In this document: in pieces, positions 1 to 39,356 of the stretch
Position numbering within the stretch: position 1 is the first letter of the stretch
Layout of the letters: every line of letters starts with the position of its first letter
NCBI GenBank assembly: GCA_951406725.2
Contig: OX597824.1
Location: 53,940,001-54,004,000, forward strand
Length of the DNA: 64,000 nucleotides
Source: Octopus vulgaris
Taxonomy: Eukaryota
Direction: 5' to 3'
Position numbers and translations under genes: made by a program
The notes under the pieces: model-generated
Told to the model about the DNA's origin: nothing
The model's input: only the letters and a program-made list of their open reading frames with translations
Databases searched by the model: none

Positions 1-53
1 AATATCTGTATTTCTTTCCTCTACCTAATTACGTTACTCAGTGACGATAACGA

Positions 54-239
54 ATGTCCACTGCTAACACCAGCTCCTGCCCACGGCGTGGTCAGGTTGG
101 AAGAGAGATCAAAAGAAAAATACCACGAAAACTATCACCACCACTACAACCCTCCTCTTCTCAGGCGCCGAATCCCCCTGTCCCCCCCACATCTCCTTCC
201 CAGTTTTCAGAGTTGGCACTATCAATGTTGGTACATTGA
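54..239 (+). CDS. Short ATG-initiated upstream ORF (61 aa) overlapping the RTE ORF
   Basis: ATG at 54, stop TGA 237-239. The main ORF is in the -1 frame and has no ATG before its first endonuclease motif. A short overlapping first ORF is known for RTE elements. Confidence 0.4.
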   Translation: MSTANTSSCPRRGQVGREIKRKIPRKLSPPLQPSSSQAPNPPVPPTSPSQFSELALSMLVH

Positions 240-3200
240 CAGGCAAGTCTAGTGAGATTGTAGAGATGCTAGAGAGAAGACAGGTTGATGTATGCTGCAT
301 ACAAGAGGTAAGATGGAGAGATGCTTCGGCTAGGGTCCTCACGGGCAAGGCACTTAGATACAAACTCTACTGGCAAGGTAACGCGGAAGGTGTAGGGGGT
401 GTAGGCATTCTCCTTGCGGAGGAATGGGTGGATAAGGTCATAGAGGTTGTCAGGGTTTGTGATAGAGTGCTTAAGCTCAGGTTGGTCCTACAGAGTGGCA
501 CAGCTATGATTATCTCAGCCTATGCCCCACAAGCGGGACTACCAAATGATCAGAAGGACAACTTTTATGATACCCTTCTGCAGGCTACTTCAAAGACTAG
601 TAACAAGGACCTCATCTTTGTAGGTGGAGATTTTAATGGGCATGTTGGGCGGGAATCGGGTATCTTCACTGGGGTACATGGTGGCTATGGTATTGGCACC
701 AGAAATGATGAGGGAACTAGACTACTGGAATTCTGTGATGCATGTAACCTTTCAATCTGCAACACTAACTTCAAGAAGCCAGTCTGCCACCTTATAACTT
801 ATCAGTCAGGAGACTCCGCTAGCCAAATAGACTTCATCCTCACCAGACAACGGGATGCAGGGTTGCTCTTGAATACAAAGACCCTCCCGGGTGAAGAATG
901 TATCCCTCAGCATAGACTAATCATCAGTGACTTTAAGCTTGAGGCCAGAAGGACTCCAAGAAACAAACCAATCCAGAAAAGAAGGATTTGGAGGCTAAAG
1001 AACCCTTCGCATGGTCAGAAATTTAGGGACATACTCATCAAGAAATTTGATGAGAGGGAAGAGGAGCTTCAGACGTCAGACATAGAAGGTAGCTGGGAAT
1101 TCCTACGGGACAGCTTGTTGAGTGCCACAGACCAAGTTTGTGGATGGTGCAAAGTCCCTTCCAGACCTAGAATTACGTGGTGGTGGAATAGTGCAGTAGA
1201 TAAAGCCATCTGTGAAAAGAGACGGGCCTGGAAAGCCTGGAAGGATGGGGGCAGCAGGGAACTGTACCAGATAGCCAAAAGGGAGGCTGGGCGGCAGGTA
1301 TACATTGCCAAAGATGTAGCAGAAAAGAAGAAGTTTGCCAATGTCCAGCGTCGCGAGGATCAAAGAGCTGAAGTATTTCGGATTGCCAGACAGTGTGTCA
1401 GAGAAAATAGCGATGTTATAGGAGAGAAATGTGTCCGCATGGATGATGGGGCACTTGCTTTTACTACTAGTGAAAAGAAAGAGGCTTGGAGAAGCCATTA
1501 TGAAAGACTGCTGAATGAGGAGAATGAATGGGAGGAGGAGAGCCTGCCAAATGTTGACCCAGTAGAGGGACCAGCTACCCGAATAGACAGCTCCCTTGTA
1601 GATAAGGCAATTAAGGATATGAAACCAGGCAAAGCCCCTGGCCTATCAGGAATCACTGCTGAGATGCTTAAAACAGCTGGCTATGTGGGCCATGCCATAG
1701 TCACCCGCATTGTAAACCAGGTAGTTCACAATGGAGCCATACCCAATGACTGGTGCAGCAGTACCATAGTCAACTGCTACAAGGGTAAGGGTGATGCTCT
1801 AGATAGAAATAACTACAGAGGTATCAAACTGTTGGACCAGGTGATGAAGGTCTCAGAGAAGGTCATAACCAATCTCATTAGGGAGAGAATTTGTTTAGAT
1901 GAAATGCAGTTCGGTTTTGTACCAGGTAGAAGCACCACTGATGCTATATTCCTGGTCCGACAACTGCAGGAGAAGTACCTAGCTAAAGATAAACCCCTCT
2001 ACATAGCTTTTGTAGACTTGGAGAAAGCCTTTGACAGGGTTCCCCGTTCCCTTATCTGGTGGTCGATGCGGAAACTGGAGATTGAAGAATGGCTAATAAG
2101 GGCTGTACAGGCTCTATACAGAGAGGCTGTTAGCAAGGTTAGGATTGGCAACGAATATAGTGAAGAATTCCGAGTAGAAGTAGGTGTGCACCAGGGCTCA
2201 GCCCTCAGTCCCCTTTTATTCATCATAGTCCTTCAGGCAATAACAGAGGAATTCAAAACGGGATGCCCCTGGGAGCTCCTCTATGCCGATGACCTAGCTC
2301 TCATAGCAGAATCACTACCGGAACTAGAAGAGAAATTTCGGGTGTGGAAGCAAGGGTTGGAATCAAAGGGCCTTAGAATAAATGTAGCAAAGACCAAAGT
2401 ATTAGTAAGCAGCAAGAGGTACTCAACACACATCCCCTCGGGTAGGTGGCCCTGCTCAACCTGTAGGAAAGGTACAGGTAGAAACTCCATAAGATGCACC
2501 CAATGTAAGTTATGGACACATAAGAGGTGCAGCAACATTAAAGGGAAATTAACAGATAAGATAGCTTTCATGTGCGGCAGATGCACAGGGACAATAGACA
2601 CAACAGACACTCAGAAAACAGATTCCATCACACTCCAGGGAGAGAAACTAGAAGTAGTTGATAGTTTCCGCTACCTGGGAGACCAAGTTAGTAGCGGAGG
2701 TGGATGCACAGAGAGTATCACCACTAGAATACGAATAGCCTGGGCAAAGTTCAGAAAGCTCCTACCCCTACTGGCAACAAAAGGCCTCTCCCTCAGAGCA
2801 AAAGGTAGATTGTATGATGCATGTGTGCGAACTGCCATGCTTCACGGTAATGAAACATGGGCTGTGACTGCAGAAGACATGCGTAGACTTGAAAGAAATG
2901 AAGCTAGCATGATCCGCTGGATGTGTAATGTCAGTGTGCACGCAAAACAGAGTGTAAGTATCCTGAGAGAAATGCTGGATATAAGAAGCATCAGATGTGG
3001 TGTGCAAGAGCGACGCTTGCGATGGTATGGTCATGTGCTGCGGATGGATGAAGAGAGATGTGTGAAGAAGTGCCACTCCCAAACAGTTGAAGGTATCAGG
3101 GGGAGAGGTAGACCCAGGAAGACATGGGATGAGGTGGTCAAGCATGACCTCAGAGCATTGGGCCTCACTGAGGCAATGGCGAAGGACCGAGATCTCTGGA

Positions 3201-3355
3201 GATATGCTGTGACTACAAAGACCCGGGCTGCTTTCTGCAGCAATTCCACATACCCCCTACCCATTCTAAGTACCCCGGATCCCCAAAGTACCCTGGATCC
3301 CCAAAGTACCCCGATCCCCAAAGTACCCCGGACCTCGTTGCCCCCGTGCCGCTGA
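236..3355 (+). CDS. RTE ORF: APE endonuclease + reverse transcriptase with embedded PHD finger
   Basis: EN motifs (VGTINV just upstream of 236, CIQE, YAPQ, GDFNGH, SQIDFI, QHRL) and RT motifs (NYRGIKL, QFGF, DLEKAFD, GVHQG, YADD, FRYLG); ends GRGRPRKTW as in RTE. Frame is open from 68, so the true start is uncertain. Confidence 0.92.
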   Translation: MTGKSSEIVEMLERRQVDVCCIQEVRWRDASARVLTGKALRYKLYWQGNAEGVGGVGILLAEEWVDKVIEVVRVCDRVLKLRLVLQSGTAMIISAYAPQAGLPNDQKDNFYDTLLQATSKTSNKDLIFVGGDFNGHVGRESGIFTGVHGGYGIGTRNDEGTRLLEFCDACNLSICNTNFKKPVCHLITYQSGDSASQIDFILTRQRDAGLLLNTKTLPGEECIPQHRLIISDFKLEARRTPRNKPIQKRRIWRLKNPSHGQKFRDILIKKFDEREEELQTSDIEGSWEFLRDSLLSATDQVCGWCKVPSRPRITWWWNSAVDKAICEKRRAWKAWKDGGSRELYQIAKREAGRQVYIAKDVAEKKKFANVQRREDQRAEVFRIARQCVRENSDVIGEKCVRMDDGALAFTTSEKKEAWRSHYERLLNEENEWEEESLPNVDPVEGPATRIDSSLVDKAIKDMKPGKAPGLSGITAEMLKTAGYVGHAIVTRIVNQVVHNGAIPNDWCSSTIVNCYKGKGDALDRNNYRGIKLLDQVMKVSEKVITNLIRERICLDEMQFGFVPGRSTTDAIFLVRQLQEKYLAKDKPLYIAFVDLEKAFDRVPRSLIWWSMRKLEIEEWLIRAVQALYREAVSKVRIGNEYSEEFRVEVGVHQGSALSPLLFIIVLQAITEEFKTGCPWELLYADDLALIAESLPELEEKFRVWKQGLESKGLRINVAKTKVLVSSKRYSTHIPSGRWPCSTCRKGTGRNSIRCTQCKLWTHKRCSNIKGKLTDKIAFMCGRCTGTIDTTDTQKTDSITLQGEKLEVVDSFRYLGDQVSSGGGCTESITTRIRIAWAKFRKLLPLLATKGLSLRAKGRLYDACVRTAMLHGNETWAVTAEDMRRLERNEASMIRWMCNVSVHAKQSVSILREMLDIRSIRCGVQERRLRWYGHVLRMDEERCVKKCHSQTVEGIRGRGRPRKTWDEVVKHDLRALGLTEAMAKDRDLWRYAVTTKTRAAFCSNSTYPLPILSTPDPQSTLDPQSTPIPKVPRTSLPPCR

Positions 3356-3600
3356 CACGTTAAAATGCTCGAACCGATCGTGACGATGCCGGACCCTCCG
3401 GCCCCTGTGCAGGTGGCAGGTAAAAAGCACCCAATCCACTCACGGAGTGGTTGGCGTTAGGAAGGGCATCCAGCCGTAGAAACTCTGCCAGATTCAGACT
3501 GGAGCCTGGAGCGGCCCCTGGCTTCCCAGACCCGGTCAAACCGTCCAACCCGTGCTAGCGCGGAAAGCGGACGTTAAACGATGATGATGATGATGATGAT

Positions 3601-6757
<3,157 letters not shown>

Positions 6758-9700
6758 GCCATCTTTCAGCCATTGGCAGTCTTTTTTCCTCCTCTTACCA
6801 TTACGATTCTACAATTTAAATTCCCAATTCAACTAACTTACTTCTTAAATTTCAACTCCCGATCGATGTCCGCAGCAAGTTCTTTAAAAATTTATCTTAA
6901 TATTTCCATTCGTTGTTACTACGTTTATTCATACATTGTTACGAAAATTTAACCTTTTAAGGCTACTTTCAAGCCTTCGCCATAACTTGATTTATCTTTC
7001 TATCTCTCTCTCTACAAAATTTAACCTTAGGCGAGGCTACCTCAAGCCGTAATCCCATCTCTTCCCATCTCTTCCCATCTTTCAGCCATCTTTCAGCCAT
7101 TGGCGGTCTTTTTTCCTCCTCTTACCATTACGATTCTACAATTTAAATTCCCAATTCAACTAACTTACTTCTTAAATTTCAACTCCCGATCGATGTCCGC
7201 AGCAAGTTCTTTAAAAATTTATCTTAATATTTCCATTCATTGTTACTACGTTTATTCATACATTGTTACGAAAATTTAACCTTTTAAGGCTACTTTCAAG
7301 CCTTCGCCATAACTTGATTTATCTTTCTATCTCTCTCTCTACAAAATTTAACCTTAGGCGAGGCTACCTCAAGCCGTAATCCCATCTCTTCCCATCTTTC
7401 AGCCATCTTTCAGCCATCTTTCAGCCATTGGCGGTCTTTTTTCCTCCTCTTACCATTACGATTCTACAATTTAAATTCCCAATTCAACTAACTTACTTCT
7501 TAAATTTCAACTCCCGATCGATGTCCGCAGCAAGTTCTTTAAAAATTTATCTTAATATTTCCATTCGTTGTTACTACGTTTATTCATACATTGTTATGAA
7601 AATTTAACCTTTTAAGGCTACTTTCAAGCCTTCGCCATAACTTGATTTATCTTTCTATCTCTCTCTCTACAAAATTTAACCTTAGGCGAGGCTACCTCAA
7701 GCCGTAATCCCATCTCTTCCCATCTCTTCCCATCTTTCAGCCATCTTTCAGCCATCTTTCAGCCATTGGCGGTCTTTTTTCCTCCTCTTACCATTACGAT
7801 TCTACAATTTAAATTCCCAATTCAACTAACTTACTTCTTAAATTTCAACTCCCGATCGATGTCCGCAGCAAGTTCTTTAAAAATTTATCTTAATATTTCC
7901 ATTCGTTGTTACTACGTTTATTCATACATTGTTACGAAAATTTAACCTTTTAAGGCTACTTTCAAGCCTTCGCCATAACTTGATTTATCTTTCTATCTCT
8001 CTCTCTACAAAATTTAACCTTAGGCGAGGCTACCTCAAGCCGTAATCCCATCTCTTCCCATCTCTTCCCATCTTTCAGCCATCTTTCAGCCATTGGCGGT
8101 CTTTTTTCCTCCTCTTACCATTACGATTCTACAATTTAAATTTCCAATTCAACTAACTTACTTCTTAAATTTCAACTCCCGATCGATGTCCGCAGCAAGT
8201 TCTTTAAAAATTTATCTTAATATTTCCATTCGTTGTTACTACGTTTATTCATACATTGTTACGAAAATTTAACCTTTTAAGGCTACTTTCAAGCCTTCGC
8301 CATAACTTGATTTATCTTTCTATCTCTCTCTCTACAAAATTTAACCTTAGGCGAGGCTACCTCAAGCCGTAATCCCATCTCTTCCCATCTCTTCCCATCT
8401 TTCAGCCATCTTTCAGCCATCTTTCAGCCATTGGCGGTCTTTTTTCCTCCTCTTACCATTACGATTCTACAATTTAAATTCCCAATTCAACTAACTTACT
8501 TCTTAAATTTCAACTCCCGATCGATGTCCGCAGCAAGTTCTTTAAAAATTTATCTTAATATTTCCATTCGTTGTTACTACGTTTATTCATACATTGTTAC
8601 GAAAATTTAACCTTTTAAGGCTACTTTCAAGCCTTCGCCATAACTTGATTTATCTTTCTATCTCTCTCTCTACAAAATTTAACCTTAGGCGAGGCTACCT
8701 CAAGCCGTAATCCCATCTCTTCCCATCTCTTCCCATCTTTCAGCCATCTTTCAGCCATCTTTCAGCCATTGGCGGTCTTTTTTCCTCCTCTTACCATTAC
8801 GATTCTACAATTTAAATTCCCAATTCAACTAACTTACTTCTTAAATTTCAACTCCCGATCGATGTCCGCAGCAAGTTCTTTAAAAATTTATCTTAATATT
8901 TCCATTCGTTGTTACTACGTTTATTCATACATTGTTACGAAAATTTAACCTTTTAAGGCTACTTTCAAGCCTTCGCCATAACTTGATTTATCTTTCTATC
9001 TCTCTCTCTACAAAATTTAACCTTAGGCGAGGCTACCTCAAGCCGTAATCCCATCTCTTCCCATCTCTTCCCATCTTTCAGCCATCTTTCAGCCATCTTT
9101 CAGCCATTGGCGGTCTTTTTTCCTCCTCTTACCATTACGATTCTACAATTTAAATTCCCAATTCAACTAACTTACTTCTTAAATTTCAACTCCCGATCGA
9201 TGTCCGCAGCAAGTTCTTTAAAAATTTATCTTAATATTTCCATTCGTTGTTACTACGTTTATTCATACATTGTTACGAAAATTTAACCTTTTAAGGCTAC
9301 TTTCAAGCCTTCGCCATAACTTGATTTATCTTTCTATCTCTCTCTCTACAAAATTTAACCTTAGGCGAGGCTACCTCAAGCCGTAATCCCATCTCTTCCC
9401 ATCTTTCAGCCATCTTTCAGCCATCTTTCAGCCATTGGCGGTCTTTTTCCTCCTCTTACCATTACGATTCTACAATTTAAATTCCCAATTCAACTAACTT
9501 ACTTCTTAAATTTCAACTCCCGATCGATGTCCGCAGCAAGTTCTTTAAAAATTTATCTTAATATTTCCATTCGTTGTTACTACATTTATTCATACATTGT
9601 TACGAAAATTTAACCTTTTAAGGCTACTTTCAAGCCTTCGCCATAACTTGATTTATCTTTCTATCTCTCTCTCTACAAAATTTAACCTTAGGCGAGGCTA

Positions 9701-11744
9701 CCTCAAGCCGTAATCCCATCTCTTCCCATCTTTCAGCCATCTTTCAGCCATTGGCGGTCTTTTTTCCTCCTCTTACCATTACGATTCTACAATTTAAATT
9801 CCCAATTCAACTAACTTACTTCTTAAATTTCAACTCCCGATCGATGTCCGCAGCAAGTTCTTTAAAAATTTATCTTAATATTTCCATTCGTTGTTACTAC
9901 GTTTATTCATACATTGTTACGAAAATTTAACCTTTTAAGGCTACTTTCAAGCCTTCGCCATAACTTGATTTATCTTTCTATCTCTCTCTCTACAAAATTT
10001 AACCTTAGGCGAGGCTACCTCAAGCCGTAATCCCATCTCTTCCCATCTTTCAGCCATCTTTCAGCCATCTTTCAGCCATTGGCGGTCTTTTTTCCTCCTC
10101 TTACCATTACGATTCTACAATTTAAATTCCCAATTCAACTAACTTACTTCTTAAATTTCAACTCCCGATCGATGTCCGCAGCAAGTTCTTTAAAAATTTA
10201 TCTTAATATTTCCATTCGTTGTTACTACGTTTATTCATACATTGTTACGAAAATTTAACCTTTTAAGGCTACTTTCAAGCCTTCGCCATAACTTGATTTA
10301 TCTTTCTATCTCTCTCTCTACAAAATTTAACCTTAGGCGAGGCTACCTCAAGCCGTAATCCCATCTCTTCCCATCTCTTCCCATCTTTCAGCCATCTTTC
10401 AGCCATCTTTCAGCCATTGGCGGTCTTTTTTCCTCCTCTTACCATTACGATTCTACAATTTAAATTCCCAATTCAACTAACTTACTTCTTAAATTTCAAC
10501 TCCCGATCGATGTCCGCAGCAAGTTCTTTAAAAATTTATCTTAATATTTCCATTCGTTGTTACTACGTTTATTCATACATTGTTACGAAAATTTAACCTT
10601 TTAAGGCTACTTTCAAGCCTTCGCCATAACTTGATTTATCTTTCTATCTCTCTCTCTACAAAATTTAACCTTAGGCGAGGCTACCTCAAGCCGTAATCCC
10701 ATCTCTTCCCATCTCTTCCCATCTTTCAGCCATCTTTCAGCCATCTTTCAGCCATTGGCGGTCTTTTTTCCTCCTCTTACCATTACGATTCTACAATTTA
10801 AATTCCCAATTCAACTAACTTACTTCTTAAATTTCAACTCCCGATCGATGTCCGCAGCAAGTTCTTTAAAAATTTATCTTAATATTTCCATTCGTTGTTA
10901 CTACGTTTATTCATACATTGTTACGAAAATTTAACCTTTTAAGGCTACTTTCAAGCCTTCGCCATAACTTGATTTATCTTTCTATCTCTCTCTCTACAAA
11001 ATTTAACCTTAGGCGAGGCTACCTCAAGCCGTAATCCCATCTCTTCCCATCTTTCAGCCATCTTTCAGCCATCTTTCAGCCATTGGCGGTCTTTTTTCCT
11101 CCTCTTACCATTACGATTCTACAATTTAAATTCCCAATTCAACTAACTTACTTCTTAAATTTCAACTCCCGATCGATGTCCGCAGCAAGTTCTTTAAAAA
11201 TTTATCTTAATATTTCCATTCGTTGTTACTACGTTTATTCATACATTGTTACGAAAATTTAACCTTTTAAGGCTACTTTCAAGCCTTCGCCATAACTTGA
11301 TTTATCTTTCTATCTCTCTCTCTACAAAATTTAACCTTAGGCGAGGCTACCTCAAGCCGTAATCCCATCTCTTCCCATCTTTCAGCCATCTTTCAGCCAT
11401 CTTTCAGCCATTGGCGGTCTTTTTTCCTCCTCTTACCATTACGATTCTACAATTTAAATTCCCAATTCAACTAACTTACTTCTTAAATTTCAACTCCCGA
11501 TCGATGTCCGCAGCAAGTTCTTTAAAAATTTATCTTAATATTTCCATTCGTTGTTACTACGTTTATTCATACATTGTTACGAAAATTTAACCTTTTAAGG
11601 CTACTTTCAAGCCTTCGCCATAACTTGATTTATCTTTCTATCTCTCTCTCTACAAAATTTAACCTTAGGCGAGGCTACCTCAAGCCGTAATCCCATCTCT
11701 TCCCATCTCTTCCCATCTTTCAGCCATCTTTCAGCCATTGGCGG
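6758..11744 (+). repeat. Tandem array of 15 near-identical ~316-338 bp monomers
   Basis: Marker CATTGGC(G/A)GT recurs at about 6771, 7098, 7426, 7764, 8091, 8429, 8767, 9105, 9433, 9749, 10077, 10415, 10753, 11081, 11409 and 11736. Length varies with copy number of CCCATCTCTT and CAGCCATCTTT subunits. Confidence 0.95.
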
Positions 11745-12713
11745 TGCGCCCCCCCCCCACCCCCACCACCAATACCGATGAACACTGTTCTCACCCCCAC
11801 CACCAATACCGGTGAACACTGTTATCACCGCCAACACCACCAATACTGGTGAACACTGTTCCTCACCCCCCACCACCAATACCAGTATACCCTGTCCTCA
11901 CCATCTACACCGGATACGCCTTACTCATCTACACCGGGTAAGCCCTACTCCCTCCTCCTCCCCCCACTACCCCTTCTCCTCATATGCTTTCACTGGGAAA
12001 AGACAAGCTGCTAGCGCCATAGCTCATCAACTGCCCACCGATCTTACGCTTCCTCCGGACACTGCTCCATTCCGACTATCCCCCTTTAGCACCCTCCCGC
12101 CTCGTAATATCCTACGTTTTTATTTCTTAGGAACCTACACCAACCCTTCCTGCCATCGTTCCTCCTTACCCCAACCTTCCCCACTGGTTGCTCCCCTATA
12201 TTACCCACCTCAACTGGACCCCCCCTCCCCAACTCAACTCTAGAATATCTGTATTCTTTCCTCTACCTAATAACGTTACTCAGTGACGATAACGAATGTC
12301 TTTATTTCTTAGGAACCTACACCAACCCTTCCTTACTCAGTGACGATAAATGCTGTGACTACAAAGACCTGGGCTGCTTTCTGCAGCAATTCCACATACC
12401 CCCTACTCATTCTAAGTACCCCAGATCCCCAAAGTACCCCGGACCTCGTTGCCCCCGTGCCGCTGACACGTTAAAATGCTCGAACCGATCGTGACGATGC
12501 CGGACCCTCCGGCCCCTGTGCAGGTGGCACGTAAAAGCACCCAATCCACTCACGGAGTGGTTGGCGTTAGGAAGGGCATCCAGCCGTAGAAACTCTGCCA
12601 GATTCAGACTGGAGCCTGGTGCGGCCCCTGGCTTCCCAGACCCGGTCAAACCGTCCAACCCGTGCTAGCGCGGAAAGCGGACGTTAAACGATGATGATGA
12701 TGATGATGATGAT
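6758..12713 (+). mobile_element. Non-autonomous RTE derivative with 5 kb 5' monomer array (type A)
   Basis: Array 6758-11744, 5' UTR 11745-12300 (end matches window 1-58), junction to RTE 3' end (12350-12713 = ~3204-3600), (GAT)n tail, (TA)n on both sides. Confidence 0.88.
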
Positions 12714-13365
<652 letters not shown>

Positions 13366-16300
13366 CACCGGCCCCAAAACGGAGGTACGCAGATGTGGTG
13401 CGTACCACAAACCACCAACGTGTTGTTGAAAGGGCAGCTGCTGAGCAGGAATCTTTTTTGTGCATGGCACAAAAGATTGTACAGCAGCTAACCTGGCTCC
13501 ATCAGGCTCAGGCTCGCAGATGGAACTGCCCACGGTTCACAAGACCGCCACAGCAGATGGACCCAGGGTGGACACCACCGGCAACAGCATACACCTCACC
13601 TCGATGCTCCTACTGAACATCAGAGGACTACTAACACACAGTAACAGGACAAAAGTCCCGTTCCTGAGAGACTTTGTCGCATGCAATCAAGCCTTATGCA
13701 TAGCACTCACAGAAACGCATCTGAAACCGGACATAGCAGATGCGGAATTACACATACCACAGTATGTTGTACTACGGACCGACAGGAAAGAAAGAAGTCA
13801 TGGAGGAGTTGCTATGTACATCCGTGGGGACCTCACACCCCAGGTCCTTTTGTCATACTCAAACTCGGTGTGTGACACACTAATTGTACACATAAGGCAA
13901 CTTGATGTAGTTGTGTGTGCTACATATCGCCCTCCAGATGCCCCAAGTCATATGGGCAAGTTTGAGGACTGCCTTTTAAAAATAGAAGAAGTTCTAACCA
14001 CATTAGAACAACACATAAGTGTACTTCTCATGGGAGACTTCAATCTACCGAATGTCAGATGGCCCGAGGGCCTTTCTCTCCCAGGAATGACAAGATGTGA
14101 ACGAGGACAGGCGAGGTCCCTCCTGAACCTCACCAACACCCTGTACATGGAGCAAGTAATACTCCAACCAACCAGAGCGGGTAACACACTGGATCTCTGC
14201 TTCACAAATAATATGGATCTCATCCATAATGTGAAAGTGACACCGACACTACTCTCGGATCACAACATGGTAGAGCTGACCATGTACGGGCCAAAAGAGA
14301 GCACGGACATGCAGCCTACAAGAAACCCTCAAAGTTTTTCCAGCTTGAACTTCAATAAGGCAAACTGGAAACAAATTGAGAAAGAGATCCTCAAACAAAA
14401 CTGGCCTGAATGTCTCTCCTCGCCGGACATCGACATGATACTTCAACAATTCATGTCTGTAATGCAAGCCATATGCTACAAATGTGTCCCAGAGAGAAAG
14501 GCCACTGTACACAAGAACAAAATCCCCAGAGAGAGAAAAATTTTAATGAGACGGCGCACAAAAATCTCAAATCGCCTAAACAAACAAATTGAAAGCAGTG
14601 AAAAGTCCCGCCTGAAAATAAAACTGTTGGAAATTGAAAATTGTCTGCAACTCTCCCATGAGAAGGAAAGAGCAGACAAAGAAGCCTGGGCTATAGACAA
14701 CATAAAAACTAACCCCAGAGCTTTCTACAGGTATGCCAAAGAAACAGCTACGGTGCACTGTAGGATAGGGCCACTCCTTGAAAAGGATGGCACACTCACA
14801 GGAAAACCAATGAGGGTAAGTGAAATACTGAATGAACAATTCAAGAGTGTTTTCACTCCACCCCTTGGGCATTTCCAAATCAGCAATCCAACTGACTTTT
14901 TACCACTGCAGATATAGAATCAGAGGCGGCGACGTTAAATTACATCGATATAAAGGAAGATGATGTAATAAAGGCTATAGATGAAATGAAAATAGACTCA
15001 GCTATTGGCCCCGATGGATTCCCGGCAATCCTCCTAAAAGTATGTAAGAGAGTCTTAGCAAGACCACTGCAGTTCCTCTTTCAGAGCTTCCTTGCAGCTG
15101 GCAAACTTCCAAGAAAACTGAAGGAAGGTAAAATATGCCCTATTCATAAAGGAGGTAGCAGAGCGGAGGCCAAGAACTACAGACCTATCTCTCTGACCTC
15201 ACACATCAGCAAGGTCATGGAACGAATAGTCAGAAGGAAGCTAATCACCTTCCTTGAAGAAAATGACTTGCTGCCTGACACCCAACATGGTTTCCGACCA
15301 GGAAGAAGCTGCTTAACTCAGCTCCTGCAGCACTATGACTGGGTGCTGAAACAACTGCTCAACCACTCAAATGTGGAAGTCATATATCTCGACTTCGCAA
15401 AGGCCTTCGATAAAGTCGATCATGGAATGATATGTCACAAACTGCGTGATCTTGGCATAGTTGGAAAACTAGGAGAATGGCTTCACGACTTTCTGAAGAA
15501 TAGAAGTCAGGTGGTAGTAGCCAATGGGGCCACTTCCATTAGCACGCAAATAGTGAGCGGTGTTCCACAGGGCACTGTTTTGGGACCACTACTGTTCATA
15601 ATGGCCCTCTCAGACATGCCCTCAGCCACGCGGAGAGCCACGATCACAAGTTATGCAGATGATACAAAAGTTTCACAGGCAATACAGAACCCTGAAGACA
15701 CTAGGCACCTGCAATATGAGCTGGACGAAATTTACAAGTGGGCTGAAAAGAATAGCATGCAGTTCAATGCTGAAAAGTTTCAAGCTTTATACTATCAGCA
15801 TGCAAAACTGAATGCAATACCCAAGAAATACACTGGACCCGGAGGGATTGCAATCCCAGAGGCACAATCAGTGCGTGACCTGGGTATTCACATGAGTGAT
15901 GACGCGACCTTTCATGTACATGTTGCTAAACTGACAGTGAAATGCAGACGCCTGGCTGGATGGATTCTTAGAACCTTTAGAACAAGAGAACAAGAAACCA
16001 TGATGGTCCTCTGGAAGACACTTGTCCTAAGTCACTTTGACTATTGCTCTCAGCTATGGTCACCATCCAGTGTCAAGTTGATCACAGAACTTGAGGCGAT
16101 CCAACGAAGCTACACGAAGAAGATAGCCTCTATGCAGAATGTAAGCTACTGGGAAAGACTCAAGAGATAAAAATTATATTCCCTGGAGCGTAGGCGGGAA
16201 AGATATGCCATAATATACATCTGGAAGATCCTGGAGGGAAGTATCCTGAACTTTGGCATCGAGAGTTACGCAAACGCCAGAACTGGGCGCCACTGCGTGG

Positions 16301-17742: not shown

Positions 17743-19585
17743 GAAGTGATCTCAAGATAAGAAATCTTTGAACTTTAATTCATCCGTATCTCTATTTATT
17801 ATTATTATTTATTAATTATTATTATTCTGATCCCCCTAGTCGCCACTCTGTTTACTATTTCAGCCTCGCCTCGCCTCGTTTTGCATATTCTGTATAATTC
17901 ACTAGTTATCGTTATTGATATTTTAAGATCTATCTCCCTTATAGAAATTGGCTGCCGATTCTTCGCGGGGTTTTCTTTTCTCTTCCCTTCTCTCCCCCTC
18001 TTGTTACATTGTCGTCTGTCTGGACTCCTCTCTTCCTACCACCCGCCATGGCTATGCATACTTAAGCTAGTAAACTGCCTCATTCTTGATTCCGAATTCC
18101 TTTTGCCAAGTCTGTCCGTAAACGAAGTGATCTCAAGATAAGAAATCTTTGAACTTTAATTCATCCGTATCTCTATTTATTATTATTATTTATTAATTAT
18201 TATTATTCTGATCCCCCTAGTCGCCACTCTGTTTACTATTTCAGCCTCGCCTCGCCTCGTTTTGCATATTCTGTATAATTCACTAGTTATCGTTATTGAT
18301 ATTTTAAGATCTATCTCCCTTATAGAAATTGGCTGCCGATTCTTCGCGGCGCGCCCGCCCTACCCACCCCCACCACCAATACCGGATATCTCTATTTTGC
18401 TCCAACTATACCGGATGTCGTTTTTCTCCCACCACCATTATAGGTGTCTACTCTTTGAACCCCCTCTTCAATACGCTATTTCACCATGCATTACCCCTCT
18501 CTCGATATCCTACGTTCTACTTGCCTAGAACCTGTCCTCTGGACCACCCCTCCCACTGGTGCTCACCCCTCCCACTGGTGCTCACCCCTCCCACTGGTGC
18601 TCCCCTATATTTCTGCATCCCCCCACCACCATTATAGGTGTCTACTCTTTGAACCCCCTCTTCAATACGCTATTTCACCATGCATTACCCCTCTCTCGAT
18701 ATCCTACGTTCTACTTGCCTAGAACCTGTCCTCTGAACCACCCCTCCCACTGGTGCTCCCCTATATTTCTGCACCCCCCACCACCATTATAGGTGTCTAC
18801 TCTTTGAACCCCCTCTTCAATACGCTATTCACCATGCATTACCCCTCTCTCGATATCCTACGTTCTACTTGCCTAGAACCTGTCCTCTGAACCACCCCTC
18901 CCACTGGTGCCCACCCCTCCCACTGGTGCTCCCCTATATTTCTGCATCCCCCCCCACCATAATAGGTGTCTACTCTTTGAACCCCCCTCTTCAATACGCT
19001 ATTTCACCATGCATTACCCCTCTCTCGATATCCTACGTTCTACTTGCCTAGAACCTGTCCCCTGAACCACCCCTCCCACTGGTGCTCTCCTATATTTCTG
19101 CACCCCCCACCACCATTATAGGTGTCTACTCTTTGAACCCCCCTCTTCAATACGCTGCTCCCCTATATTTCTGCACCCCCCACCACCATTATAGGTGTCT
19201 ACTCTTTGAACCCCCCTCTTCAATACGCTATTTCACCATGCATTACCCCTCTCTCGATATCCTACGTTCTACTTGACTAGTACCTGTCCTCTGAACCACC
19301 CCTCCCACTGGTGCTCCCCTATATTTCTGCACCCCCCCCATAAAAAGCACCATCCGAACGTGGCCGATGCCAGACCCCTCTGGCACCTGTGCAGGTGGCA
19401 CGTAAAAAACACCCACTACACTCGCGGAGTGGTTGGCGTTAGGAAGGGCATCCAGCTGTAGAAACACTGCCAGACTAGACTGGAGCCTGGGGCAGTCCCG
19501 AGCTCCCCAGACCCCGGTCGAAACCGTCCAACCCGTGCTAGCGCGGAAAACGGACGTTAAACGATGATGATGATGATGATGATGA
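17743..19585 (+). mobile_element. Non-autonomous RTE derivative with 381-bp 5' monomers (type B, ~1.6 copies) and internal tandem repeats
   Basis: 17743-18123 repeated from 18124 to ~18349; junction motif at ~18347-18387; repeated ATAGGTGTCTACTCTTTGAACCCC units 18430-19340; RTE-type 3' end and (GAT)n tail. Confidence 0.85.
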
Positions 19586-19598
19586 TATAGCTATATCT

Positions 19599-19818: not shown

Positions 19819-22800
19819 TAACTTAGAATAACTTAGAATAACTTAGAAAGGTTTTTGGCCAGTATTGGCCCAGGCCATGTCTAACTTAATAGCACCACCT
19901 GGCGAAGTCTTTCAGTTCAGGATTTGGGCACCAAGGCCCATTCGAGCAGAGAGTTATTGTTTGCGGAGACATATCCGGGTGTGGATGGTTTGTCCGGTAC
20001 TGTTTGAAGGAATTTGTCCAAAGACTTCTTGAATTTTGTGTGGTCAGTTTCTTTTTTGACGTGTCCTGGTGTAATGTTGAAGAGAGCGGGTCCAATTGAG
20101 GTGAAATAGTTGTGCCGTATTGTCGTTATGTGATGCGATTTAGATTTTTGTTGTGGACGGATGGCACGTGGTCCAAGCCTTGGATGCATTTTGAAGGTGA
20201 TGCCAACATCATTCGGACAGTGCTGATGGAATATTTTCCACATCATACAGATAATGTAGCGTTCACGGCGTCGTTGGAGTGAATACAATTTCAGCTTCTC
20301 TAGTCTACCCCAGTAGTCAAGGTCTGACATGCCATCTATCTTTTTTGTGATTGACCTTTGGGGAGCTTCAATTCTCATAATATTTTGTTTTGTGTAGGGA
20401 GACCACAGTGGACAGCAGTATTCAAGGTGGGGTCGGGCAAAAGTGGAGAAGAGAAGGATAATAGCGTGGGAATCTCTCGACTGGAAGGTTCTGAGAATCC
20501 AGGAACACATTCTGCGGGCCATGTCAACTTTGCTGCTTATATGTGTAGCCCAGCTTATGTTGTTGTCCACTGTTACTCCCAGGTCTCTGATGTTGTTGGA
20601 TGCCATGAGAATTTCTCCAGAAGGAAGAGAGTATGGGAGTTTCAGAGCGTCCTCCCTTCCAAAGTGGATCAGTTCGAATTTGTCTTCATTTAGCAACATG
20701 TTATTCTTTTCCGCCCATTGGACAACAGCCAGTAGGTCTGACTGAAGGTTTATTCGGTCATCCACGCCATTGATGACCTTCTGGAGCTTGGAATCATCAG
20801 CGAAGGTTCTGATGTTGCTGTGTTTGATGGTGTCAGTAATATCATTTATGTAGATGATGAAGAGAAGTGGGCCCAACACAGTGCCTTGTGGGACACCACT
20901 GCTGACTTTGGCTGGGCTGGATTTGACTCCTTCGACTACAACATGTTGGGTTCTGTTAGAGAGGAAGCACTTGATCCATTGCAGCAGCTTTCCAGTGACA
21001 CCAATATTGGACAGCTTTCTCAGAAGGATCTTATGATCAACCCTGTCAAAGGCCTTGCTGAAATCAAGGTAGATGACATCAGTGTTGGAACCCTCTCCCA
21101 AGGCTCTCAAAATGTCATCAAAATGATGCAGTAGCTGCGTCAGGCAATCTCTCCCATTACGGAATCCATGCTGGTTGGGGTTCAGCATATTATGACTCTC
21201 AAGGAAGTGAGTCATACGCGATCTCAGCACCCTCTCAAATACCTTGATGATATGAGAGGTGAGTGAGATTGGACGGTAATTCACGGCAAGCGATTTGTTT
21301 CCTTTTTGAAAACTGGGACAACAGACTGGGATAGAAGGTCTTCTGGTATATATCCAGCATCCAATGAGTTCCGCCACAGATTGGCTAGAGGGGGTGCAAG
21401 TTGGTTTTGACACATCTTCAAGACACAAGCAGGGAACCTATCGGGACCTACTGCTGAATTATGCTTCATTTCCTTTATTGCTGCTAAGACATCAGGAGCG
21501 CCAAATGTTATGTCCGATAAAGTGTATTGGGGAGTAACATCACTGATACAGCCCAGATCAGTCATATCAGGATTGCTGAAAACAGAGCAATATTGTTTCT
21601 GCAATATTTCTCCCATGGTTTTGGCATTGTCTTGAAGAATATCATTTTCATCAATCAGAGGGCCAACAGTAGAACCAGTGACTCTGTGTTTTTTTGCAAA
21701 TGAAAAGAACACTTTGGGATTGAGTTTGATCCTCTCAATGGCCCAGGCCTCTTCAGCTCTTCGCTGACTATTGATGATAGACATCATGTTGTTTTGGAGT
21801 TTATGTTTTTTAATCTCTAGCGACGAGATGGCAGTCAGGTTGGTGTGTTGCTGTTGACAGTATTTCAGCATGTTGATCTTTTTGTTGATTCTTTTAATTT
21901 TCCTTATGAGAGATTTTCTATTTCTAGGGATTCGACACTTAGATTTGTTTGCAGATCTTAATGGGGTGTGTCTTGCACATATGTTCGTGATGGTGTCTAC
22001 AAGTGACTGCCAGGACTTTTTGATGTTAGTGGGTGTGTATGTGTGCGTGAAGGACCAATCGACTTGTGCAAGATCATTATTGATCGCTTCCCAGTTTGCA
22101 TTGTGGAAATCCATAGTGTCAAATGGATGAACAGGAGGGATGACATTTGTTTTGCATTTTGGCCAGTGAAATCTCAGATCACAGAGAACCATGTCATGGT
22201 CGGAGAGTAGGGTTTTCTCCACTGCAATATTGTGGATAGTATCAGTGTGATTGCTGAAAATTAAGTCTAAGACGTTTTTGTGACATCTCGTTGGTTCGAG
22301 TACCAGTTGGGACAAGAAGAAGTCATCCATGAAGTCAAGAAGCGATTCCACTGCCTCCCTGTCAGGGGTTGAGAGAGAAGAACCTGGCGGCAGACTGTTT
22401 GTAGACCAGTCAACCCCGGGAAGGTTGAAATCTCCCATCATTAAAATGTTGTCAGGTTGACACTGCTGAATGAAACACTTTATGCTGTTGAGGCATTCCT
22501 TGAAGCATGGTAGGGGCGTTTGGGGTGGTCTGTAGAGCCCAACTACTGTTAAGTTGTTGGTTTGACTGAATACAGCGACTGCTTCGCAGTATCCATTCGA
22601 AAATATGTTCATGGCTTCTGTTGAGAATGAATCATGGACATAAATGGCAGTCCCACCCTTTCTTCTGCCAACACGATCAGCACGAATGGTTTTGAAATTT
22701 TTAACTTTCACCTCGGCTTCCAAGTGGAGGTCACTAAGATGGGTTTCAGTGAGGACGAAGAAAGGGATGTGGTTTGGATGGGCCTCGACCCAGTCCTCCA

Positions 22801-23283
22801 GGAATCTTATCTTCCATTTTTGTGTATTGGTGGAAGGGCTGATGCCTTGGGCATTAAGCAGAAATGTTGAGGCGAGAGTGGATGGTTTTAATTGTTTTGG
22901 TGATTTGTTTATTTGATTGCTTTTTAATGGCATGTGTAGTGGGGTAATAGTGGTGGATGGCGGTGGGTGATAGCTCGGATGTTTTTTTCCAGTTCTTTTG
23001 CTAGATTCATTATAGCTAAAAAAGAGGAAGAAGAGGTGGTTTCCTGTCTAGGGAACCGCAGGTGACTGTGGCCGCGGCTATTTTTATGTGAGTGGTTATC
23101 TTTAAATGTCCGACGAGTCCCCGGGAGATGGGTAAAGGGGCAATCCCTGTGCAAACACAATCTGTCTCGCTGGGAATAGCGGCAGATTTGGGGATTCCTT
23201 GTTTGAGATATTGGTGGTTGTGGTGATGTTGTATTATGGTGGTTGCTGTTGTAGTTTGTGGGGATAGAGCGTTTTGTTCCAGG
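19819..23283 (-). mobile_element. CR1-group LINE family 2, 5'-truncated in ORF1
   Basis: ORF1 C-terminus with CCCH-type motif (CRYSQRDRLCLHRDCPFTH) ending at 22924, EN+RT ORF2, (TAAGTTATTC)n tail. Confidence 0.9.
19917..22933 (-). CDS. LINE family 2 ORF2 (EN+RT), single 1-bp frameshift at ~21300
   Basis: Two ORF-track pieces join at VVPVFK|KGNKSLAVNYRPISLTS; FADD and YSLQRRRERY motifs; no internal stops otherwise. Confidence 0.85.
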
Positions 23284-24069: not shown

Positions 24070-25282
24070 TGATTGATTGATGATTGATTGATTGATTCCA
24101 GTTCCAGCCTATGAGCTGTGGCCATGCTGGGGCACCGCCATTTGGTGTTGCTACTTGGTTTCACTTCATGGAGGCTTTCTAGCAACTGCTATTTGGTGCA
24201 TGAGAGAGTTCGATGCAGCTGCCCTCATCTGCCCCTCCTGCCGTGAAGTTGGTTCATCTGGGACACCTGACAGGAAGAGATCCAGCTTCATTTTAAAGAC
24301 ATCTGTATCCACCCCATGCAGGTCTCTCAGGTTCTTCGGGAGGATATTGAAGAGCTGTGGGCCTCTGAAGCCCAGGCTATCACAGAATCTTGTCCTACAT
24401 CTTGATGGCAGGTTTGGAGTCCTAGGCACCACGCAGTGGCGCCCAGTTCTGGCATTTGTGTAACTCTCGATGCCAAAGTTCAGGACACTTCCCTCCAGGA
24501 TCTTCCAGATGTATATTATGGCATATCTTTCCCGCCTACGCTCCAGGGAGTATAATTTTAATCTCTTGAGTCTTTCCCAGTAGCTTACATTCTGCATAGA
24601 GGCTATCTTCTTTGTGTAGCTTCGTTGGATCGCCTCAAGTTCTGTGATCAACTTGACACTGGATGGTGACCATAGCTGAGAGCAATAGTCAAAGTGGCTT
24701 AGGACAAGTGTCTTCCAGAGGACCATCATGGTTTCTTGTTCTCTTGTTCTAAAGGTTCTAAGAATCCAGCCAGCCAGCCGTCTACATTTCACTGTCAGTT
24801 TAGCAACATGTACATGAAAGGTCGCGTCATCACTCATGTGAATACCCAGGTCACGCACTGATTGTGCCTCTGGGATTGCAATCCCTCCGGGTCCAGTGTA
24901 TTCATTGGGTATTGCATTCAGTTTTGCATGCTGATAGTATAAAGCTTGAAACTTTCCAGCATTGAACTGCATGCTATTCTTTTCAGCCCACTTGTATATT
25001 TCGTCCAGCTCACATTGCAGGTTTTTAGTGTCCTCAGGGTTCTGTATTGCCTGTGAAACTTTTGTATCATCTGCATAACTTGTGATCGTGGATCTCTGCG
25101 TGGCTGAGGGCATGTCTGAGAGGGCCATTATGAACAGTAGTGGTCCCAAAACAGTGCCCTGTGGAACACCACTCATTATTTGCGTGTTAATGGAAGTGGC
25201 CCCATTGGCTACTACCACCTGACTTCTATTCTTCAGAAAGTCGTGAAGCCATTCTCCTAGTTTTCCAACTATGCCAAGATCA
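24070..25282 (-). mobile_element. 5'-truncated family 1 LINE (1.2 kb, open RT C-terminal half 24166-25218)
   Basis: Near-identical to ~15448-16652; (AATC)n tail. Confidence 0.92.
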
Positions 25283-30422
<5,140 letters not shown>

Positions 30423-31399
30423 ATACTCTTTTACTCTTTTACTTGTTTCAGCCATCCGGCTGAGGCCATGCTGGGCCCCGCCCTTGTTGCTACCCTCTCT
30501 AAGTCCAGTTTGCCGTGGCTGGCCACTGATCTAAGAGAGAGTTTGTAGCTGCTGCCCTTAGGTTACCTTCGTACCTTGCAGTGGGTTCATCTGGGATCCC
30601 GGAAAGCAGCTTGTCTAGATGTTTTTTGAAAATGTCCACATCCGCATCATGTAGATCTCTTAGTTTTCTTGGCAGTTTGTTGAACAGCTGAGGGCCCCTG
30701 AACCCCAGGCTATTACAGTATCTGCTCCTTACCCTGGATGTGGAAGACGGGACCTTTGGCACCACACAGTGACGTCCTGTACGGGGATTGGAACAGCTCT
30801 CAATTCCAAAATTTGGTGCTAGTCCCTCCAGGATTTTCCATATGTATATCACTGCATATCTCTCTCGTCTTCGTTCCAAGGAGTACAAATTGAGTTCCCT
30901 AAGCCTCTCCCAATAGTTCTTTTCTTTCATGGTGGAAATCCTCTTGGTGAAATGTCTTTGGATTGTCTCAAGCTCTGTGGTTAGTTTGACACTATGCGGT
31001 GACCACAGTTGGGAGCAGTAGTCCAGGCGGCTTAGGACAAATGTCCTCCATAGTGTCAACATGGTCTCGCAGTCTCTTGTCCGGAATGTCCTCGGGATCC
31101 AGCCAGTGAGTCGTCTGCACATTGTTGCCACCTTCGCGATGTGTGAAGAAAAAGATGCATCGTCACTCATGTCTATCCCCAGGTCCCGTATTGATTTCGA
31201 TACTGGGATTTCGATCCCTCCTGGACCAGTATAGTTGTGTTGTAATGTATATGTGTTTACAGCTTGATATTGTAAGGCTTGAAATTTATCAGCATTAAAT
31301 TGCATGTTGTTGTCTTCAGCCCATTTGTATATGGCATCCAGATCTTGTTGTAAAAGGTCAGCATCAGCTGGGTTTTTGATTGCCTGTGCTACCTTTGTG
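30423..31399 (-). mobile_element. 5'-truncated CR1-group LINE family 3
   Basis: ORF 30499-31305 homologous to the family 1 C-terminus ([27 protein letters not shown]); (GTAAAAGA)n tail. Confidence 0.9.
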
Positions 31400-31514
31400 T
31401 ATATATATCTATATATCTATATATCTATATATCTATATATATATATCTATATATCTATATATCTATATATATATATATATCTATATCTATATATATATCT
31501 ATATATCTATATAT

Positions 31515-35165: not shown

Positions 35166-35447
35166 TCTTCAGTGGATACAAAAGGACGTTAGCTCAAATA
35201 GAGCGGAAGAAGCAGGAGTTTATACGCTCCTATGAACTTATAAGTTCGCACATTAACACGCTGGATGCCATCTTTGACAGCGAACAAAGTAAAGATGGCA
35301 AGGATGGAGATGCGGGTGCTGATGAAAAAAGTCACCCCCACCTGGTAGACACCCAGGAAGAAAACTCCAGTGAGAAACCTGCCCGGGAAGTAAACCCAAG
35401 TGCAAGTGCTCCTACCAGCACCAAAAGCCATGGAGATGAAAGAACCA

Positions 35448-37605: not shown

Positions 37606-39356
37606 CATCATCATCATCATCGTTTAACGTCCGTTTTCCACGCTAGCACGGGTTGGATGGTTTCGACCAGGGTCTGGGGAGCCAGGGGCTGCCCCAGGCT
37701 CCAGTCTGGTCTGGCAGTGTTTCTACAGCTGGATGCCCTTCCTAACGCCAACCACTCTGCGAGTGTAGTGGGTGCTTTTTGCGTGCCACCTGCACAGGTG
37801 CCAGAGGGGTCTGGCATCGGCCACGGTCAGTTGGTGCTTTTTATGTGCCACCTGCACAGAAGCCAGTCGGGGCAGTGCTGGCATCGGCCACGTTCGGATG
37901 GTGCTTTTTATGTGGGGGGAGGGTGCAGAAATATAGGGGAGGACCAGTGGGGAGGGGTGTTCGGAGAAACGATGACAGGTTCTAGACAAGTAGAACGTAG
38001 GATATCACGAGAGGGGTAATGCATGGTGAAATAGCGTATTGAAGAGGGGGTTCGAAGAGTAGACACCTATAATGGTGGTGGGAGAAGCGACATCCGGTAT
38101 AGATGGAGCAAAAATATAGAGATATATCCGGTATTGGTGGTGGGGGTGGGCAAGGGCGGGTGCACCGGGAATATGCGAAGGTTGAACTTGACGGGCTGGC
38201 TTAAAAATACTCTTAGCAATGGAAGGGGGGAAAGGAAGAGGGGGAGGGCAGACAACGTAAAAGAGGAGAGAGAGAGAGAGAAGGGAATAGTGGAACCCCG
38301 CGAAAATCGGCCGCCATTGAAAAACCCCTGTATGGAGAAACTTAAATATAAATATCTATTCTGTATTTAGCGAGACACGAGGCCGGAAACCGATGGTCAA
38401 CAATAACTAATAAATTATACAGAATATGCAATACGAGGCGAAACTGAAAATAATAATAATAATAATACTAATAAACAAATTGTCGACTGGGGGTCAAAGG
38501 GATAATACTAATACTAATAATAATAATAATAAACAGCTTAACCACTAGAGATCAGACAAATTTGCATGAGAATATTACTGGTACAGATTACGGGATGAAT
38601 TAGATTAGAAAGATTTTCTTATCTTGGGAACATTTCGTTTTCGGCCTGACACACGGCGAATATGCGAAGGTTGAACTTGACGGGCTGGCTTAAAAATGCT
38701 CTTAGCAATGGAAGGGGGGAAAGGAAGAGGGGGGGAGGGCAGACAACGTAAAAGAGGGAGAGAGAGAGAGAGAAGGGAATAGTGGAACCCCGCGAAAATC
38801 GGCCGCCATTGAAAAACCCCTGTATGGAGAAACTTAAATATAAATATCTATTCTGTATTTAGCGAGACACGAAGCCGGAAACCGATGGTCAACAATAACT
38901 AATAAATTATACAGAATATGCAATACGAGGCGAAGCTGAAAATAATAATAATAATAAACAAATTGTCGACTGGGGATCAAAGGGATAATACTAATACTAA
39001 TAATAATAATAATAAACAGCTTAACCACTAGAGATCAGACAAATTTGCATGAGAATATTACTGGTACAGATTACGGGATGAATTAGATTAGAAAGAATTT
39101 CTTATCTTGGGAACATTTCGTTTTTCGGCCTGACACGGCGAATATGCGAAGGTTGAACTTGACGGGCTGGCTTAAAAATGCTCTTAGCAATGGAAGGGGG
39201 GAAAGGAAGAGGGGGGGAGAGCAGACAACGTAAAAGAGGGAGAGAGAGAGAGAAGGGAATAGTGGAACCCCGCGAAAATCGGCCACCATTGAAAAACCCC
39301 TGTATGGAGAAACTTAAATATAAATATCTATTCTGTATTTAGCGAGACACGAAGCC
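37606..39356 (-). mobile_element. Non-autonomous RTE derivative with ~485-bp 5' monomers (type C, ~2.4 copies)
   Basis: Monomer marker AATATGCGAAGG at 38170, 38659 and 39141; junction motif 38128-38166; body homologous to the type B element; (GAT)n tail. Confidence 0.85.

What the first reader, a model, noticed from the sequence alone, without database searches (positions are those of the whole stretch)
6758..12713. RTE retrotransposon with a 5' tandem monomer array resembling a mouse-L1-style promoter
Seen: what looks like a satellite (15 x ~330 bp) is contiguous with an RTE 5' UTR and 3' tail, and the whole unit is flanked by (TA)n, so the array appears to be the 5' end of the element. Each monomer carries 1-2 copies of GCCATCTT followed by GCCATTGGCGG, and the element's first bases (6758) are exactly GCCATCTT. 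Established: GCCATCTT is the YY1 core motif, and mouse L1 uses tandem monomers containing it, with 5' ends clustering near it. RTE elements are normally described with short 5' UTRs. Inference: a convergently evolved monomer promoter in an invertebrate RTE family, with an unusually high monomer count. I cannot check novelty against repeat databases.
Basis: partly seen in the sequence, partly recalled or inferred. Interest (0 to 1): 0.85.

Follow-up and report, generated by a model that had tools for sequence, protein, structure and literature searches.

The report
RTE retroposons with swappable tandem heads
What looks like a satellite is the repeated front end of a young, protein-less copy of a jumping gene; its family and two sister families carry such stacked front-end units, which likely serve as self-renewing promoters as in mouse L1, though no promoter activity was measured.

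Summary
Window 6758-11745 is 15.1 near-identical ~330-bp monomers joined to an RTE-type 5' UTR and 3' tail, but the element has no ORF: it is a non-autonomous deletion derivative.

The array is the element's 5' end. 30 of 31 arrays picked by monomer abut the body. Of 40 ORF-bearing copies picked by ORF, 32 run into monomers and 8 are cut inside the UTR.

The YY1 argument fails. GCCATCTT is in 0 of 27 autonomous monomers, and only 6 of 99 5' ends lie near it (13.4 expected). 5' ends are still non-random: 74 of 99 fall in monomer positions 14-175, at about three times the truncation rate elsewhere, with no sharp peak.

New here: two sister elements in the window carry other monomers (381 and ~485 bp, unrelated to the 330-bp unit) on the homologous UTR start. 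This resembles monomer replacement in mouse L1.

A tandem, self-renewing promoter is the likely function (0.65), inferred only. Ten literature searches found no such RTE; Repbase and Dfam could not be checked.

The parts
6758..11745 (+). 5' array of 15.1 monomers (316-338 bp); length varies through 10- and 11-bp micro-repeats at the monomer end
11746..12300 (+). non-monomeric 5' UTR ('tether'), 96% identical to the UTR of the ORF-bearing partner
12298..12349 (+). short duplicated UTR piece and the deletion junction that removes ~3.1 kb of ORF; the same junction-region sequence is in 43 fetched loci (overlapping fetches not removed)
12350..12689 (+). last codons of the ORF and 3' UTR of the RTE partner
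12690..12713 (+). (GAT)8 tail
4562..6757 (.). TA-rich minisatellite, upstream target flank
12714..13359 (.). TA-rich minisatellite, downstream target flank
1..3600 (+). ORF-bearing partner: ORF 68-3355 (1095 codons stop to stop; endonuclease, RT, PHD-like finger), 3' UTR and (GAT)n; its UTR and 1.7 monomers lie just upstream of the window (L031:8758-9958)
3952..4561 (-). 5'-truncated second deletion derivative (UTR joined directly to the tail)
17743..19586 (+). sister ORF-less element with 1.6 copies of an unrelated 381-bp monomer (17743-18349) on the homologous UTR start
37606..39356 (-). sister ORF-less element with ~2.4 copies of a 482-490-bp monomer (39356-38167), related to the 381-bp type, on the homologous UTR start

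Best explanation
The finding is a young, ORF-less derivative of an RTE-type LINE whose family begins with a tandem array of ~330-bp monomers, and the monomers likely act as repeated RNA polymerase II promoter units. Shown: the array is the 5' end of both ORF-bearing and ORF-less copies, copies sit mostly in TA-rich DNA, and their 5' ends are enriched in monomer positions 14-175. Inferred: transcription starts diffusely in that part of any monomer, so an RNA begun in an upstream monomer carries the downstream monomers, and a working promoter, into the new insertion. The partner's endonuclease/RT would copy the ORF-less RNA in trans through the shared 3' tail. Arrays would be rebuilt and homogenised by template switching at the 5' end or by unequal recombination, and whole monomer types would be replaced on a conserved UTR start. 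The factor that binds the monomer is not identified; the exact YY1 site GCCATCTT is not required.
For: Linkage: 30 of 31 monomer-selected arrays abut UTR plus tail, and the other ends at an assembly gap. 15 of 15 arrays listed on C1 end in a UTR. 32 of 40 ORF-selected copies reach monomers, 8 are cut in the UTR. Genome counts are 1432 monomer, 252 UTR and 148 junction k-mers, with 0 for reversed controls. 5' ends: 74 of 99 in positions 14-175 vs 54.4 expected. In the set fetched after the zone was noted, 30 of 41 vs 22.9, p=0.017; 0 of 2000 scan simulations reach 74. End rate per kb in the ORF-selected set is 1.19 in the zone, 0.32 in the rest of the monomer and 0.35 in the UTR. The excess survives weighting by start k-mer and local AT content, p 0.0001-0.007. 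Homogenised length variants of 245-389 bp and polar mosaic arrays L069 and L099. An unrelated 381-bp monomer sits on the same UTR start, with 23 of 27 listed arrays ending 3' in the junction form. Precedent: mouse L1 monomers are promoters with non-random 5' ends (PMC9022269, passages).
Against: No transcription start or promoter activity was measured. There is no sharp 5'-end peak (best 20-bp window p=0.25), whereas mouse Tf ends cluster at nt 70-110 (PMC9022269). The 8-bin test is p=0.022 overall and not significant in any subset alone (p 0.18-0.6). The zone was first chosen post hoc, is more AT-rich than the rest (0.68 vs 0.60), and six end positions were corrected by hand. Substitutions show no clearly conserved block in the monomer. 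An older ORF-bearing sister family with the same UTR start showed no tandem spacing among 21 k-mer matches. No ORF-bearing partner was found for the 381- or 482-bp types (against the lists).
Confidence: 0.65

Rival explanations
1. The monomers are passengers. The element is transcribed by read-through or from the UTR, arrays grow by RT template jumping or local duplication, and the 5'-end bias comes from where truncated cDNA can join TA-rich targets.
For: Ends are spread over ~160 bp with no peak. 44 of 52 TA-flanked junctions share at least 1 base with the TA repeat. The enriched zone is AT-richer. One older sister family shows no tandem spacing.
Against: The excess persists under k-mer and AT weighting. 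The rest of the monomer (60% AT) loses ends at the same rate as the UTR (46% AT). Two unrelated monomer types occupy the same position on homologous UTR starts, which passengers would not predict.
Confidence: 0.2
2. One reading: a YY1-anchored monomer promoter, with starts set at GCCATCTT.
For: The window copy starts at GCCATCTT. The motif is in 92 of 117 non-autonomous monomers. The shorter core GCCAT occurs 3 times per autonomous monomer against ~0.25 in shuffles, so a YY1/PHO-type factor (core recalled) is not excluded.
Against: 0 of 27 complete autonomous monomers carry GCCATCTT. 6 of 99 ends lie in that zone vs 13.4 expected. The 247- and 274-bp variants lose the TTGGCGG arm in internal monomers. 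The 381- and 482-bp monomers have no GCCATCTT and 1 and 0 GCCAT.
Confidence: 0.1
3. An independent satellite that happens to abut an RTE remnant, or an assembly artefact.
For: Several of the longest arrays begin or end at assembly gaps (L039, L052, L177, second array in L034). Only part of the 1432 monomer matches could be placed.
Against: Arrays are dispersed, oriented, end at one fixed junction and vary only at the 5' side. Contigs of four public runs bridge monomer to monomer. The window array has resolved flanks and private variants.
Confidence: 0.03
4. The monomer holds a self-cleaving ribozyme (HDV-like, as predicted for several RTE 5' ends, or retrozyme-like) and the array is a rolling-circle product.
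For: RTE 5' ribozymes are reported (PMC5786205, passages).
Against: No Rfam hit reaches a gathering score in 11000-12750, best E 0.56. The monomer folds no better than shuffles, z=0.17. A ribozyme in every monomer would give one exact 5' end and at most one monomer per copy, unlike.
Confidence: 0.02

Closest known systems
Mouse L1 monomer 5' UTRs (A, Tf, Gf)
   Same: Variable tandem monomers upstream of a non-repeated tether; non-random 5' ends inside monomers (PMC9022269, passages); different monomer types on related bodies (recalled for A/F/V).
   Different: RTE-type single-ORF element, not L1. Monomers are 245-490 bp, against ~210 bp in mouse. More than 10 monomers in 4 of 32 unbiased copies, against 7 of 5765. 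5' ends are spread over ~160 bp and avoid GCCATCTT. Many carriers are ORF-less. Promoter activity is not shown here.
Bipartite non-autonomous RTEs (Bov-A, RTESINE1/2, WALLSI3, MAR4_MD)
   Same: Only the 5' and 3' parts of the autonomous RTE are kept, by internal deletion (PMC5786205, passages).
   Different: The 5' part is a multi-kilobase monomer array; 'tandem' does not occur in the main text of that paper.
RTE-2_OV of Octopus vulgaris (PMC9115989)
   Same: Single ORF of similar size, zinc finger, ~600-nt UTR, microsatellite tail (passages).
   Different: Four of its primers match the window ORF only with 5-7 mismatches, so likely another family. The main text has no 'tandem', 'monomer' or 'YY1'.
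Dictyostelium TRE5-A A-module
   Same: A 200-bp 5' module with promoter activity and a non-autonomous deleted partner (PMC3159450, passages). That A-modules occur in tandem is recalled, not seen in the passages.
   Different: tRNA-gene-targeting element with two ORFs; unrelated sequence and host.

Membership tests
RTE clade of non-LTR retrotransposons (ORF-bearing partner) | Single ORF with APE-type endonuclease and RT, no ORF1 | tested here: met
   ORF 68-3355 with Exo_endo_phos and RVT_1; the ~640-bp UTR lies directly upstream
RTE clade of non-LTR retrotransposons (ORF-bearing partner) | 3' microsatellite tail rather than poly(A) | tested here: met
   (GAT)n; feature described in PMC6007223 passages
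RTE clade of non-LTR retrotransposons (ORF-bearing partner) | RT phylogeny groups with named RTE elements | not testable with these tools
   None of the 120 listed homologues carries a clade name; the label RTE rests on architecture and recalled motifs
RTE clade of non-LTR retrotransposons (ORF-bearing partner) | Target-site duplication | tested here: inconclusive
   No clear TSD in 8 copies inspected with both ends; 75 of 99 copies have (TA)4 within 30 nt upstream, where a TSD is hard to read
Bipartite non-autonomous RTE | 5' and 3' ends of the autonomous element joined by internal deletion, amplified as a unit | tested here: met
   body 97.5-99.5% identical to the 12 best other copies
Mouse-L1-type monomer promoter | Variable tandem monomers 5' of a unique tether | tested here: met
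Mouse-L1-type monomer promoter | 5' ends non-random within the monomer | tested here: met
   broad enrichment only
Mouse-L1-type monomer promoter | 5' ends clustered at a conserved YY1 site (Tf type) | tested here: not met
Mouse-L1-type monomer promoter | Promoter activity in the monomers | not testable with these tools
   only contigs of runs not on record as RNA were available
Ribozyme-headed RTE or retrozyme | Self-cleaving ribozyme and one precise 5' end | tested here: not met
   no dedicated HDV descriptor search was run

The most novel reading that the evidence does not exclude
An invertebrate RTE lineage independently evolved the whole mouse-L1 promoter strategy: self-renewing tandem promoter monomers, arrays rebuilt from single variants to 15-35 units, and repeated replacement of the monomer by unrelated sequence on a conserved UTR start. 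This would make monomer promoters a general solution for LINEs and a source of dispersed satellite-like arrays.
Probability: 0.5. Interest if true: 0.8.

Novelty: new variant of a known kind. Interest (0 to 1): 0.63.

Why it matters
How LINEs keep a promoter through reverse transcription, and why they swap promoters, has been studied mostly in mammalian L1. A second, independent and very young system offers a natural replicate: hundreds of copies, two unrelated monomer types, visible homogenisation and mosaic arrays. It makes array regeneration testable from one genome. It also shows that repeat pipelines that strip tandem repeats would split these elements into a 'satellite' and a short body and lose their likely promoter. 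That matters for claims about LINE expression in this animal group.

Tried and rejected
Expression: no RNA holder listed. The four runs laid are contigs and cannot show starts, strand or level; their higher depth over the monomer was not used. One contig end in X1 carries what looks like a template-switch adapter (recalled); it is a single contig and was not taken as a start site.

Ribozyme or structured RNA: Rfam and folding were negative for the monomer. The junction plus UTR start folds modestly better than shuffles (z=-2.4) and was not followed up.

Identity with RTE-2_OV: rejected on four primers.

TSD search: nothing clear.

A conserved core in the monomer: all five deletions of 36 bp or more fall in its first ~240 of 349 positions, which is too few to count, and substitutions show no protected block.

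ORF-bearing partner for the 381- and 482-bp types: none of the 40 best copies of a sister ORF lies beside a listed junction; the one locus fetched is ORF-less.

Earlier findings: three look-ups returned nothing.

Dropped before the 5'-end count: duplicates, the degraded C32 array (L052, L053), 20 open or gap-ended arrays, 8 UTR truncations and 1 copy with an inverted 5' end (L071).
Full report
OBSERVATION. The window is G000:C11:53940001-54004000 of a 2.8-Gb genome. That the host is octopus-like is my inference from size and repeat content, not a tool result. Positions 6758-11745 hold 15.1 monomers of 316-338 bp. The array starts with GCCATCTT and is followed by a 555-bp C-rich UTR, a 3' end and (GAT)8 ending at 12713, all inside a TA-rich minisatellite. 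The 14 complete monomers differ by 4 singleton substitutions plus micro-repeat counts, so the copy is very young. It has no ORF. Its UTR is 96% identical to that of the ORF-bearing element at window 1-3600, and its 3' part matches that element from about 3204 on. That partner encodes endonuclease, RT and a PHD-like finger in one frame, and its own 5' end, just upstream of the window, is 1.7 monomers 91-92% identical to these.

IS THE ARRAY PART OF THE ELEMENT? Yes, by three differently biased samples. (a) By monomer: 261 matches, 150 listed, giving 31 arrays; 30 abut UTR and tail and one ends at an assembly gap. (b) By ORF start: the 40 best of 1095 candidates, all examined; 32 run into monomers (two for only 13-26 bp), 8 are cut inside the UTR, and none has a whole UTR with other DNA upstream. 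(c) By exact k-mers: 1432 monomer, 252 UTR and 148 junction matches, 0 in reversed controls; all 15 arrays among the first 100 monomer rows end in a UTR. Of 70 loci obtained from the junction list, 59 are ORF-less, 10 ORF-bearing and 1 unclassified, with several distinct junction forms. Contigs of three runs of organism A and one of organism B bridge monomer to monomer, so the tandem form is not peculiar to this assembly. Targets are TA-rich: 75 of 99 5' flanks have (TA)4 within 30 nt, against 840 of 7884 background windows. No TSD could be read.

MONOMER NUMBER. In the ORF-selected set the median is 1.75, and 4 of 32 exceed 10. Mouse has means of 3-4 in its youngest subfamilies and 7 of 5765 loci above 10 (PMC9022269, passages). 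Longer arrays exist, about 27 and about 37 units on C1, but the latter begins at an assembly gap.

YY1. GCCATCTT is in 0 of 27 complete autonomous monomers and 92 of 117 non-autonomous ones, where an 11-bp duplication creates it (the second count includes a few overlapping fetches). Only 6 of 99 resolved 5' ends lie in that zone, against 13.4 expected. The shorter core GCCAT is over-represented in autonomous monomers: 3 against ~0.25 in shuffles (one search printed 4 by counting the wrap twice; one search gives 3). A YY1-type factor is therefore not excluded, but it does not set the 5' ends.

5' ENDS. From 128 loci I dropped 20 open or gap-ended arrays, 8 UTR truncations and one inverted end, leaving 99; six positions were corrected by hand. 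74 fall in monomer positions 14-175, against 54.4 expected. I noted that zone before fetching the junction set, which then gave 30 of 41 against 22.9 (p=0.017). A scan over all windows gave 0 of 2000 simulations as extreme, and the excess is present in the first three monomer ranks (20 of 26, 15 of 16, 8 of 12). Per kb at risk, ends occur at 1.19 in the zone, 0.32 in the rest of the monomer and 0.35 in the UTR: ordinary truncation plus an extra source of ends in one part of each monomer. Weighting by start k-mer or AT content leaves p at 0.0001-0.007. Against: there is no narrow peak (p=0.25), the 8-bin test is weak (p=0.022, not significant in subsets), and the zone is AT-richer.

ARRAY DYNAMICS. 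Modal monomer lengths run from 245 to 389 bp across 94 arrays. Substitutions and indels are typically fixed through a whole array and shared with particular arrays elsewhere. L069 has six 348-bp units next to the UTR and five 334-bp units beyond them; L099 loses two markers toward its 5' end. This fits regrowth from one variant and addition of units at the 5' side by template switching or recombination (inference). Whether long arrays grow before or after insertion is not settled.

BEYOND THE FINDING. Two more ORF-less elements in the window have the homologous UTR start and RTE tail but other monomers: 381 bp at 17743-18349 and 482-490 bp at 39356-38167. They resemble each other (score 131 vs 33 for shuffles) but not the 330-bp unit (32.5 and 33 vs 31) and lack GCCATCTT. 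The 381-type k-mer has 446 matches; 23 of the 27 arrays in the first 100 rows end 3' in the junction form, one with 19 units, and that one is ORF-less. The 482-type k-mer has 42 matches, some in tandem. An older ORF-bearing sister (69% amino-acid identity) has the same UTR start but showed no tandem spacing in 21 matches, so arrays may not be universal in the lineage.

MECHANISM. Shown: architecture, linkage, target bias, periodic 5'-end excess, homogenisation, and two unrelated monomer types at one position. Inferred: monomers are polymerase II promoter units with dispersed starts; stacking lets each new copy inherit a promoter; ORF-less copies are mobilised in trans; monomers are replaced over time. 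A ribozyme model is unlikely. A passenger model remains the main rival.

KNOWN SYSTEMS AND NOVELTY. It works like the mouse L1 monomer 5' UTR, but fails the YY1-cluster test and is not an L1. The ORF-less form is a bipartite non-autonomous RTE, a known kind (PMC5786205). The RTE label rests on architecture; no named reference was available for a tree. Ten literature searches turned up no RTE with 5' monomer arrays. I read passages of PMC9115989, PMC5786205, PMC6007223, PMC9022269, PMC3159450 and PMC10294476, and the first third plus passages of PMC13282606; other papers were seen only as listings. No supplements were opened; the repeat library of PMC13282606, Repbase and Dfam could hold prior annotation. 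PMC9022269 lists monomeric 5' UTRs only for vertebrate L1s in the passages seen.

VERDICT. Real and larger than reported. The structure is secure, the YY1 detail is wrong, and the promoter function is likely (0.65) but unmeasured. New variant of a known kind; interest 0.63.

Noticed in passing
window 17743-19586 (+) and 39356-37606 (-): Sister ORF-less RTE-tailed elements with 381-bp and ~485-bp 5' monomers on the homologous UTR start; the first also has 156-175-bp tandem repeats inside its UTR.
   Followed up: partly
window 36615-35460 (-): Degraded 5' part of an older RTE sister (69% amino-acid identity, many copies at 96-98%) with the same UTR start and a single-copy upstream segment that shares short stretches with the 381/482 monomers by eye.
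   Followed up: partly
L031:8758 to window 19586: Four members of the lineage and a CR1-like LINE are inserted within ~21 kb of one TA-rich minisatellite tract, an apparent insertion hotspot.
   Followed up: no
window 13445-16170 (+), 19917-23047 (-), 24166-25311 (-), 30499-31416 (-): Other LINE ORFs, CR1-like by recalled motifs; the first has endonuclease and RT in two frames.
   Followed up: no
L071:4440-4486 (oriented copy): ORF-bearing copy whose 5'-most ~45-60 bp is an inverted piece of monomer, like twin-priming inversions of L1.
   Followed up: no
ORF-selected copies L074, L075, L077, L081, L085: 5 of 20 full copies share a frame that ends after 353 codons, so a defective sublineage has amplified in trans; 7 of 20 keep frames of 1047-1060 codons.
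   Followed up: no
window 837-886 aa region of ORF 68-3355 (Pfam stretch 796-839): PHD-like finger inserted after the RT domain; many of the 120 listed homologues (40-53% identity) carry PF00628 too, suggesting a widespread PHD-bearing subgroup.
   Followed up: partly
window 34613-35215: 49-bp and related CT-rich tandem repeats, not linked to the finding.
   Followed up: no
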